In this document: in pieces, positions 59,251-64,000 of the stretch
Numbering within the stretch: position 1 is the first letter of the stretch
How the letters are laid out: the number at the start of each line of letters is the position of its first letter
Origin: a virus
IMG/VR virus record: IMGVR_UViG_3300018426_001942
Span: 87,965 to 151,964 of that record
DNA length: 64,000 nucleotides
Reading direction: 5' to 3' (one strand)
Position numbers and translations under genes: made by a program
The notes under the pieces: model-generated
What the model saw: the letters and a program-made list of their open reading frames with translations, nothing else
Database searches by the model: none
What the model was told of the DNA's origin: nothing

Positions 59251-59269
59251 TCAGTTCTCCTATATGTAT

Positions 59270-59295
59270 TATTTAGTTGACATAATTAAGTATGT
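59270..59295 (-). promoter_or_regulatory. Putative late promoter with upstream element: ACATACTTAA-N10-TAAATA, for the baseplate operon
   Basis: TAAATA at 59275-59270, then an AGGAG SD and the ATG at 59250. Confidence 0.6.
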
Positions 59296-59305
59296 AGTTT
59301 ATAAT
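59277..59305 (+). promoter_or_regulatory. Perfect sigma70 consensus promoter TTGACA-N17-TATAAT for gp55
   Basis: -35 at 59277-59282, -10 at 59300-59305. Confidence 0.85.
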
Positions 59306-59318
59306 ATGACTATTAAAC

Positions 59319-63231: not shown

Positions 63232-63250
63232 ATGCTAGGTAAGTACCTAC
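63216..63250 (+). promoter_or_regulatory. Competing hairpins with an embedded TAAGTA box ahead of the GIY-YIG gene
   Basis: ACCTAGC (63216-22)/GCTAGGT (63234-40) versus TAGGTA (63236-41)/TACCTA (63244-49). TAAGTA at 63240-45 lies 5 nt before the ATG. Confidence 0.45.
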
Positions 63251-63700
63251 ATGGAGTGGACTTATAAAGGCAAAAAAATTGAAACCATACCAGAAGAATT
63301 TGAAGGCTTCGTATATCTAATAACGAATAAAAAAACAGGGCAAAAATATATAGGCAAAAAACTAGCAAAGTTTAAAACTACAAAGCCACCTCTTAAAGGC
63401 AAAAAGAATAAACGTAGAGGCTATAAAGAAAGCGACTGGAAAACCTATTGGGGTAGTTCTGATAGATTAAATGCAGACGTTAAAGCACTAGGCGAAAAAA
63501 ACTTTACAAGAGAAATATTATACCTATGCAGAGGCAGGGGCGAAATGTCCTACATTGAGGCAAGAGAGCAATTTGACCGCCGTGTATTAGAGAGCGACGA
63601 GTATTACAATGGAATTATTAATGTTAGAGTTGGCGGTTCCGATAAATTGCGCAAGGCTTTGCTAGAACACACCATCAAGGCAAAACAATCCAACACCTAA
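63251..63700 (+). CDS. GIY-YIG family endonuclease (stand-alone catalytic domain, Seg/EndoII-like)
   Basis: GFVYLITN...KYIGKK, Y.GSS, F.REIL, E...Q, YYN; 149 aa with no C-terminal DNA-binding extension. Confidence 0.85.
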   Translation: MEWTYKGKKIETIPEEFEGFVYLITNKKTGQKYIGKKLAKFKTTKPPLKGKKNKRRGYKESDWKTYWGSSDRLNADVKALGEKNFTREILYLCRGRGEMSYIEAREQFDRRVLESDEYYNGIINVRVGGSDKLRKALLEHTIKAKQSNT

Positions 63701-64000
63701 GGTTGGCGGGCCAGTTTGAAAATACCGCTGTGGAAAAAGCATCCTTGATCGGAGCACACGTAACATACTGATTGACACACCAGAGTGTGGAAGCCATCAA
63801 ACAAATTGGGCTCACTAGTTGGTATAGATAGATTGTTGGCTGTCGAAAAACTGTACATTACACATAAAAACCCCTTAGCACTAGGAACGAAGCGGGGGAT
63901 AATGTACTGTATAGAAAGCATAAAAGCGTTTTACGCACTCTATATAGTACATGATGTCGACGTAGGTTGGGAAAGGTCAGAGCCCATTGTGTAGCAGATA
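63701..64000 (+). ncRNA. Putative large structured non-coding RNA (continues beyond the window; family not identified)
   Basis: About 44% GC by hand count (131/300), higher than the AT-rich intergenic gaps elsewhere, and no credible ORF. Nested helices: TGGGCTC/GAGCCCA (63807-13/63980-86), GTCGA/TCGAC (63842-46/63957-61), a 14-bp stem (63902-15/63939-52), CACAC/GTGTG (63776-80/63785-89), GCGG/CCGC (63706-09/63725-28). Confidence 0.6.

What the first reader, a model, noticed from the sequence alone, without database searches (positions are those of the whole stretch)
63251..64000. Stand-alone GIY-YIG nuclease directly followed by a large, nested structured RNA: candidate nuclease-RNA system
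Seen: a 149-aa GIY-YIG catalytic domain with no DNA-binding tail ends at 63700. At least 300 nt of non-coding, GC-enriched sequence (~44% by hand count) follow in a genome whose other intergenic gaps here are under ~70 nt and AT-rich. It folds as a multibranch RNA. An outer helix ACAA-AT-TGGGCTC (63801-13)/GAGCCCA-TTGT (63980-90) encloses GTCGA/TCGAC (63842-46/63957-61). That helix encloses CCCCTT/AAG(C)GGG (63871-76/63890-96) and a long hairpin, ATGTACTGTATAGA/TCTATATAGTACAT (63902-15/63939-52), extended by GC-TAAAA/TTTTA-GC. Hairpins further 5' lie at 63690-63706 (spanning the nuclease stop codon), 63705-29, 63730-59 and 63776-89. Most wobble pairs are G-U on the + strand. Known: phages carry large ornate ncRNAs (GOLLD, ROOL), and compact nucleases pair with adjacent RNAs (HEARO, OMEGA). 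Inference: this is an unassigned large phage RNA, possibly a partner or specificity factor for the nuclease. Alternatives are an independent RNA or a replication origin.
Basis: partly seen in the sequence, partly recalled or inferred. Interest (0 to 1): 0.85.

Follow-up and report, generated by a model that had tools for sequence, protein, structure and literature searches.

The report
Twin-box phage RNA, Polynucleobacter-1 relative
Behind a small DNA-cutting enzyme gene, this uncultured marine giant phage carries a conserved, knotted non-coding RNA of about 415 bases that does not need that enzyme, is a divergent relative of an unexplained RNA motif catalogued in 2010, and may help start DNA copying, which is unproven.

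Summary
The structured element is real. The contig ends inside it, so the window holds only the first ~310 of ~415 nt. In about 100 homologues, covariation supports a multiply pseudoknotted fold that starts inside the nuclease's last codons. In homologues the missing 3' end carries one 7-nt word twice (identical in 163/166 loci, 29 different words), then an A+T-rich tract and DNA-type GCGNNAGC mini-hairpins. Rfam RF01718 (Polynucleobacter-1) does not match this 5' domain, but RF01718-positive loci follow the same nuclease family and share the twin-box 3' domain. The RNA is not an obligate GIY-YIG partner: a complete 382-kb phage has the same RNA behind a PD-(D/E)XK resolvase and no PF19835 gene, and a complete 30-kb phage also has it without one. 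Best mechanistic bet (about 0.3): an origin-opening or primer RNA working like ColE1 RNA II. A trans-acting RNA with two equal binding sites is nearly as likely. No transcript data could be obtained. This scan has reported the family on other DNA (about 50 earlier notes); those notes gave me the Polynucleobacter-1, twin-box and primer leads, which I re-tested.

The parts
63240..63245 (+). TAAGTA, late-promoter-like hexamer exactly 5 nt before the nuclease ATG; probably gives a leaderless late transcript that runs into the RNA (inferred)
   Evidence: same hexamer class and 5-nt spacing in most homologues and at 6 genes of this genome
63251..63700 (+). stand-alone GIY-YIG nuclease (PF19835, PHROG 447); occupies a slot that a PD-(D/E)XK RusA-like resolvase fills in other phages of the clade
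63690..64000 (+). 5' three quarters of the twin-box RNA; overlaps the last nuclease codons; cut by the contig end; about 105 nt with both boxes are missing
   Evidence: third-position heterozygosity 0.10 in codons 141-150 against 0.16-0.53 elsewhere
63690..63839 (+). pseudoknot 1: 63690-95 pairs with 63834-39, the loop of the hairpin 63827-30/63841-44
   Evidence: 100% paired, 4 of 6 pairs with double changes; tree-aware E<0.03 for 63690:63839
63705..63759 (+). helices 63705-09/63725-29, 63730-32/63757-59 and variable hairpin 63739-63755
63765..63825 (+). long helix 63765-74/63816-25 carrying an exchangeable module (63776-63813)
   Evidence: several pairs at E<=0.05; 96.5% paired
63858..63994 (+). 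long-range helix, core 63861-64/63988-91; crosses the helix that starts at 63962 (pseudoknot 2)
   Evidence: two pairs at E<0.03
63871..63898 (+). helix 63871-74/63895-98 with a nearly invariant AGGAACGA loop
63902..63952 (+). variable hairpin; a 4-bp GNRA-capped stem to >70 nt in homologues
63957..63986 (+). conserved core: 63959-61/63976-78 (pseudoknot 3), 63968-71/63983-86, and 63962-67 whose partner strand lies beyond the contig end
59319..63231 (+). context: gp55-like late sigma factor, gp47-like nuclease, gp46-like ATPase and a 69-aa ORF; begins at the divergent coding-strand switch 59251-59318

Best explanation
Identity (about 0.9): a single-copy, ~350-440-nt multiply pseudoknotted non-coding RNA gene of a jumbo T4-like phage clade, with an exchangeable 5' domain (the Rfam Polynucleobacter-1 motif is one such domain, the window's is another) and a shared 3' twin-box domain. 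It is the nuclease gene's neighbour, not its guide. Mechanism (about 0.3, all steps inferred): it works like ColE1 RNA II or a T4 R-loop origin. The transcript folds and presents box 1 single-stranded; box 1 pairs with the template DNA strand at box 2, which explains why the boxes must be identical yet may be almost any sequence; this seeds a persistent RNA-DNA hybrid over the A+T-rich tract behind box 2; the freed DNA folds GCGNNAGC and C(GNA)G mini-hairpins that load primase or helicase. The adjacent branch nuclease (GIY-YIG or resolvase) belongs to the gp47-gp46 recombination cluster.
For: Covariation incl. two pseudoknots beats a tree-aware null. GNRA loops are strand-biased in the body, 39 vs 4 on the other strand. 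Boxes identical in 163/166 loci found without requiring identity, 29 words in all; no exact complement in the RNA in 0/167 loci and no excess in the flanks. +7..+60 behind box 2 is 25% G+C. GCGN1-2AGC follows on the same strand in 88/117 window-type and 30/39 loci of the Polynucleobacter-1-pattern set, against 2% background; GNA-triloop hairpins in 95/122 and 26/42 against 4%. GCGTTAGC, the commonest form, is the alpha3/St-1 primase-origin mini-hairpin (PMC13037366). The element lies within about 5-10 kb of a main divergent coding-strand switch in 5 of 5 large contigs. ColE1 and T4 use transcript-made R-loops over unwinding elements (PMC5043065, PMC3016281).
Against: The promoter looks late, whereas T4 R-loop origins use middle promoters and are shut off late. 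Skew at four-fold sites does not flip cleanly at the locus. Mini-hairpin density is not uniquely high there genome-wide. Some complete relatives gave no detectable copy (G014) and G008 has two with different boxes. Boxes keep a family likeness (position 6 is A in 21 of 23 words), which pure pairing would not require. The upstream-copy/template pairing in ColE1 is from my memory (Masukata and Tomizawa 1990); I did not find it in the library.
Confidence: 0.33

Rival explanations
1. A trans-acting late RNA (scaffold, decoy or packaging-linked RNA) whose 3' domain is two equivalent modules; both boxes bind the same partner, a homodimeric protein or one nucleic-acid target elsewhere. The DNA mini-hairpins are a separate element.
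For: Late-type promoter; each box is preceded by a similar TGAC-linker-ACTC/ATCT context; conserved box likeness; in 30-kb phages the RNA lies just ahead of methylase and terminase genes; ornate phage RNAs such as GOLLD and ROOL form large RNA assemblies (PMC12286853 abstract).
Against: A protein reader would have to change specificity about 29 times; no third site found nearby; mini-hairpins travel with the RNA in all lineages, including small phages.
Confidence: 0.3
2. One reading: the RNA is a cofactor or specificity factor of the GIY-YIG nuclease (or of whichever nuclease fills the slot).
For: Adjacent or near in 82 of 90 informative RNA-found loci; probably co-transcribed; one small-phage lineage keeps both in reversed order (9 loci); the protein has a basic beta-hairpin at residues 38-60.
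Against: Complete genomes with RNA and no PF19835; unrelated resolvase in the same slot in 40 loci; inverted nuclease loci; 78/80 distant nucleases lack the RNA nearby; box differs in 12 of 83 pairs with 95-99% identical nuclease; no genome-wide avoidance of the box.
Confidence: 0.1
3. The whole element acts as folded single-stranded DNA (an origin or packaging signal), not as RNA.
For: DNA mini-hairpins downstream; no transcript shown.
Against: Strand-specific GNRA loops and G-U pairs in the body, few GNA triloops there; GAAA, UUCG and GCAA loops interchange in the published Polynucleobacter-1 alignment; three pseudoknots.
Confidence: 0.1
4. Template-jumping RNA (DRT2- or telomerase-like): a polymerase copies from one box and re-anneals at the other, which needs identical boxes.
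For: Identity without a complement is what template jumping predicts (own knowledge of DRT2 and telomerase).
Against: No RVT_1 in G000, five relatives, or complete G011, G012, G014; a divergent or host enzyme is not excluded.
Confidence: 0.08
5. A 3' untranslated regulatory or stabilising structure of the upstream mRNA.
For: Begins at the stop codon of whichever gene is upstream.
Against: Upstream gene is freely exchanged or inverted; size and complexity exceed need; RF01718 records show their own TAAATA box upstream.
Confidence: 0.07

Closest known systems
Polynucleobacter-1 RNA motif (Rfam RF01718; Weinberg et al. 2010, PMC2864571)
   Same: Lies downstream of the same gene family (PSSM2_218 is a tblastn hit of this nuclease). 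RF01718-positive loci and the published flanks carry the same twin-box 3' domain and mini-hairpins; a model built only from window-type 3' domains finds them at the right place. Function unknown in both.
   Different: The 141-position Rfam model covers only a 5' domain and does not match the window or its close homologues. The twin boxes are not part of the Rfam model.
ColE1 RNA II and T4 oriF/oriG R-loop origins
   Same: Long folded transcript followed by an A+T-rich tract and single-strand DNA signals (analogy only).
   Different: No sequence homology tested or claimed; no antisense RNA I equivalent found; promoter looks late; origin activity not shown.
GOLLD and ROOL ornate RNAs
   Same: Large, pseudoknotted, phage-linked, function unknown.
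   Different: No Rfam match; smaller; no tRNA nearby; twin identical boxes.
HEARO/OMEGA RNA with IscB or TnpB
   Same: Compact nuclease gene next to a structured RNA.
   Different: GIY-YIG, not HNH/RuvC; not mobile; no guide; the RNA persists without the nuclease.
PHROG 447 / PF19835 SegE-like GIY-YIG proteins (annotated 'NAD synthetase')
   Same: Same family; 817 cultured phage records match.
   Different: Melnitz and P-SSM2 copies have no such RNA; in this clade the gene alternates with a RusA-like resolvase.

Membership tests
Polynucleobacter-1 (RF01718) | score above the gathering threshold of the Rfam model | tested here: not met
Polynucleobacter-1 (RF01718) | downstream of a PSSM2_218-like gene | tested here: met
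Polynucleobacter-1 extended family | shared twin-box 3' domain | tested here: met
   met for close homologues (11 of 14 hits at the twin-box site, best E 0.0045); the window itself is cut before this domain
GOLLD / ROOL / tmRNA / self-splicing introns | Rfam or ARAGORN match | tested here: not met
RNA-guided nuclease systems (HEARO/OMEGA) | RNA and nuclease strictly co-occur | tested here: not met
RNA-guided nuclease systems (HEARO/OMEGA) | variable guide matching a target | tested here: not met
   variable parts are self-paired hairpins; box neither avoided nor matched nearby
RNA-guided nuclease systems (HEARO/OMEGA) | RNA binds the nuclease and directs cleavage | not testable with these tools
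   needs biochemistry
GIY-YIG nucleases | fold and conserved Tyr, Tyr-Gly, Glu, Asn | tested here: met
   invariant Y22, Y33, G35, E103, N120; I-TevI Z 8.3, rmsd 2.6, 82 aligned
GIY-YIG nucleases | conserved helix-1 arginine | tested here: inconclusive
   no invariant Arg at the usual place; K37 is invariant; not superposed residue by residue
RNA-primed origins (ColE1 RNA II, T4 oriF) | A+T-rich unwinding tract and single-strand DNA signals behind the transcript | tested here: met
   (in homologues)
RNA-primed origins (ColE1 RNA II, T4 oriF) | replication-type skew change at the locus | tested here: inconclusive
   total skew turns nearby but tracks the coding strand
RNA-primed origins (ColE1 RNA II, T4 oriF) | persistent R-loop and priming | not testable with these tools
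   needs experiment
DRT2-like template-jumping RNAs | linked reverse transcriptase | tested here: not met
   (RVT_1 only)

The most novel reading that the evidence does not exclude
A widespread phage RNA that opens or primes DNA replication by pairing an upstream copy of a free-sequence 7-mer with the template strand at its downstream twin: an RNA-programmed origin of jumbo phages that also works in 30-kb phages with no recognisable replication genes.
Probability: 0.25. Interest if true: 0.85.

Novelty: new variant of a known kind. Interest (0 to 1): 0.55.

Why it matters
It shows that an orphan motif from 2010 is only one exchangeable 5' domain of a much larger RNA family that is common in uncultured marine and freshwater jumbo phages and has spread to small phages. 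Covariation by identity rather than complementarity is unusual and gives a sharp genetic test (single against double box changes). If the origin model holds, it names the replication start of this phage group. Separately, the alternation of the PF19835 protein with a RusA-like resolvase suggests that a very common phage gene mislabelled 'NAD synthetase' is a branch-cleaving nuclease.

Tried and rejected
Extending the contig: it is linear and ends at 64000. Three ENA contigs with 99-100% identical upstream DNA carry other RNA alleles (71-82% identical); L200 switches to being identical to another phage (L017) inside the RNA, and same-nuclease IMG/VR contigs nearly always share the RNA, so I treat these as probable assembly chimeras, not as a recombination hot spot. 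The window's own allele could be affected the same way. Nucleotide search of cultured phages found nothing. The genome contigs pattern scan appeared to give only chance matches (not screened further). Single-sequence fold was poor and was redone with an alignment. Sequence search of the PDB gave nothing significant. Cis complement or third copy of the box: none above background. Restriction-like avoidance of the box: none. A small ORF from the box ATG, kink-turn C/D boxes and DnaA boxes were considered and dropped because many box variants lack the needed letters. Proteins flanking the RNA in the 30-kb phage gave no replication function. Literature search found only the 2010 paper. No complex prediction was run, as it cannot score RNA.

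Full report
Setting. The window is the last 64 kb of a 152-kb linear virus contig estimated 43% complete. The region reads gp55-like late sigma factor, gp47, gp46, a 69-aa ORF, the nuclease and then 300 non-coding bases to the contig end. The nuclease is PF19835 / PHROG 447, with matches in 817 cultured phage records; the closest is Methylophilales phage Melnitz at 67%, where only a short gap follows.

Is the element real? Folding energy alone does not show it (z -1.26). Homologues do. Eighty loci with 85-93% identical nucleases mostly have 480-570 non-coding bases downstream, made of near-invariant blocks and exchangeable hairpins. A nuclease-independent pattern scan added more. On 101 distinct sequences, a G-test with a tree-aware null gave 11 pairs that none of 40 null alignments reached, including 63690:63839 and 63861:63991, which define two pseudoknots. 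The first comparison is biased in favour of my fold because it was derived from these sequences; the tree-aware test is not. The RNA starts inside the last nuclease codons, where synonymous variation drops. GNRA loops are strand-biased in the body, 39 against 4, which favours RNA on the plus strand. No transcript data could be obtained.

The missing 3' end. In homologues about 105 more bases follow: a strand that pairs with 63962-67, then ACTC-box, a hairpin, TGAC, a linker and ATCT-box. The two 7-nt boxes are identical in 163 of 166 loci that were found without requiring identity; across all sets 29 different words occur (the wider sets were detected by identity, so they add words, not a rate). 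Spacing is mostly 50-65 nt, and no exact complement of the box lies in the RNA in any of 167 loci; flanks show no excess of a third copy or complement. Behind box 2 the next 50 bases are 25% G+C, and GNA-triloop hairpins and a GCGN1-2AGC motif follow in about three quarters of loci against 2-4% background. These are DNA-type mini-hairpins, and GCGTTAGC is the form at the alpha3 and St-1 primase origins (PMC13037366).

Relation to known RNAs. Rfam finds nothing in the window or in divergent homologues. An earlier scan note pointed to Polynucleobacter-1. Weinberg et al. 2010 state that these RNAs lie downstream of genes like PSSM2_218, which is a hit of our nuclease. Their alignment flanks contain twin boxes in the same context. 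A pattern from that alignment fetched 59 loci with the nuclease, twin boxes or both; 12 of 16 tested pass the RF01718 threshold. A covariance model built only from window-type 3' domains put 11 of its 14 hits at the twin-box site of those loci, best E 0.0045. Several other 5' domains sit on the same core. So this is one family with exchangeable 5' domains, of which Rfam models one. The window is a relative, not an RF01718 member.

Link to the nuclease. The protein has a GIY-YIG fold with invariant Y22, Y33, G35, K37, E103 and N120. A TAAGTA box 5 nt before its ATG is conserved, suggesting a leaderless late transcript. Adjacency is common: 71 adjacent, 8 near, 3 downstream and 8 without in informative RNA-found loci. 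It is not obligate. Of 78 loci of a PD-(D/E)XK RusA-like resolvase that fills the same slot behind gp46, 40 carry the RNA and none a GIY-YIG. G011 (382 kb, 100% complete) has the window-type RNA, the resolvase and no PF19835, with positive controls ringing in three other genomes. G001 (30 kb, 100%) has the RNA and no PF19835. In about 20 loci the nuclease is inverted and the RNA stays on the gp46 strand; 78 of 80 more distant nucleases have no twin box nearby. The box differs in 12 of 83 pairs with 95-99% identical nucleases and is not avoided in the genome. One small-phage lineage does keep RNA and nuclease together in reversed order, so a loose functional tie remains possible.

How it most likely works. 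Shown: conserved fold, twin identity, no complement in cis, A+T tract, DNA mini-hairpins, mostly one copy per genome, position near a main divergent coding-strand switch in five large contigs. Inferred: everything about function. Two sequences that must match each other but may be almost anything, with no complement in the RNA, most simply pair with one shared strand. The template DNA is such a strand, and the downstream anatomy is that of an RNA-opened origin as in ColE1 and T4 (PMC5043065, PMC3016281). I put this at about 0.3. Against it are the late-type promoter, an inconclusive four-fold-site skew, mini-hairpin density that is not unique and two copies in G008. A trans-acting RNA with two equal binding sites is about as likely. 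Template jumping lacks a reverse transcriptase.

Novelty. New variant of a known but unexplained kind. Only the 2010 paper names the motif in the library. This scan has about 50 earlier notes on the family in other genomes; I used them as leads and re-tested them. Caveat: 23 of 80 contigs end within 500 nt behind the nuclease and none within 500 nt before it, so assemblies are fragile here and the window's allele needs long-read confirmation.

Noticed in passing
L607-L684, G011, G012 against G006, G007, G009: PF19835 GIY-YIG and PF24608 (PDDEXK_15, RusA-like resolvase) fill the same slot behind gp46 and did not co-occur in the genomes tested, suggesting non-orthologous replacement; the PHROG 447 label 'NAD synthetase' is unsupported.
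   Followed up: partly
G008:166007 and G008:276029 (L446, L337): One 302-kb phage has two copies with different boxes (GCATGAA, AGATGAA); the first is in an unrelated neighbourhood with no nuclease.
   Followed up: partly
L466-L509: Nuclease gene inverted relative to gp46 and the RNA; the RNA begins back to back with the nuclease start and has C-richer boxes (ACCACAT, AGCACAT, ACCACAG).
   Followed up: partly
L084, L099, L112, L142, L083, L163 (G001): Small ~30-kb tailed phages carry the RNA in their non-structural block, ahead of methylase and terminase genes; no replication genes recognised in G001.
   Followed up: partly
L101, L115, L124, L134, L161, L164, L191, L608: Short ORFs of 60-100 aa are inserted between nuclease and RNA; the RNA then starts at their stop codon.
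   Followed up: no
L350, twin-box region: The letter in front of both boxes changes together (ACAC and ATCA instead of ACTC and ATCT), so the repeat may extend past 7 nt with a bulged C.
   Followed up: no
L200, L201, L202 against window 63660-64000: Contigs identical to the window upstream carry other RNA alleles; L200 continues as L017. Probable chimeric assembly.
   Followed up: yes
downstream gene in L003-L080: The gene after the RNA is highly variable in length (about 115-490 aa) but usually starts with an MKI.E-like motif behind a TAAATA box.
   Followed up: no
window 63235-63250: The late-promoter-like box lies in a small inverted repeat (TAGGT/ACCTA) just before the ATG; the repeat did not look conserved in the homologues shown.
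   Followed up: partly
L062, L065, L066 (722-1450 nt behind the nuclease stop): A 242-aa ORF on the minus strand is inserted between the RNA and the next gene.
   Followed up: no
G007:165901-166800, G009:264001: Other mini-hairpin-rich stretches exist in these genomes, away from the RNA.
   Followed up: no
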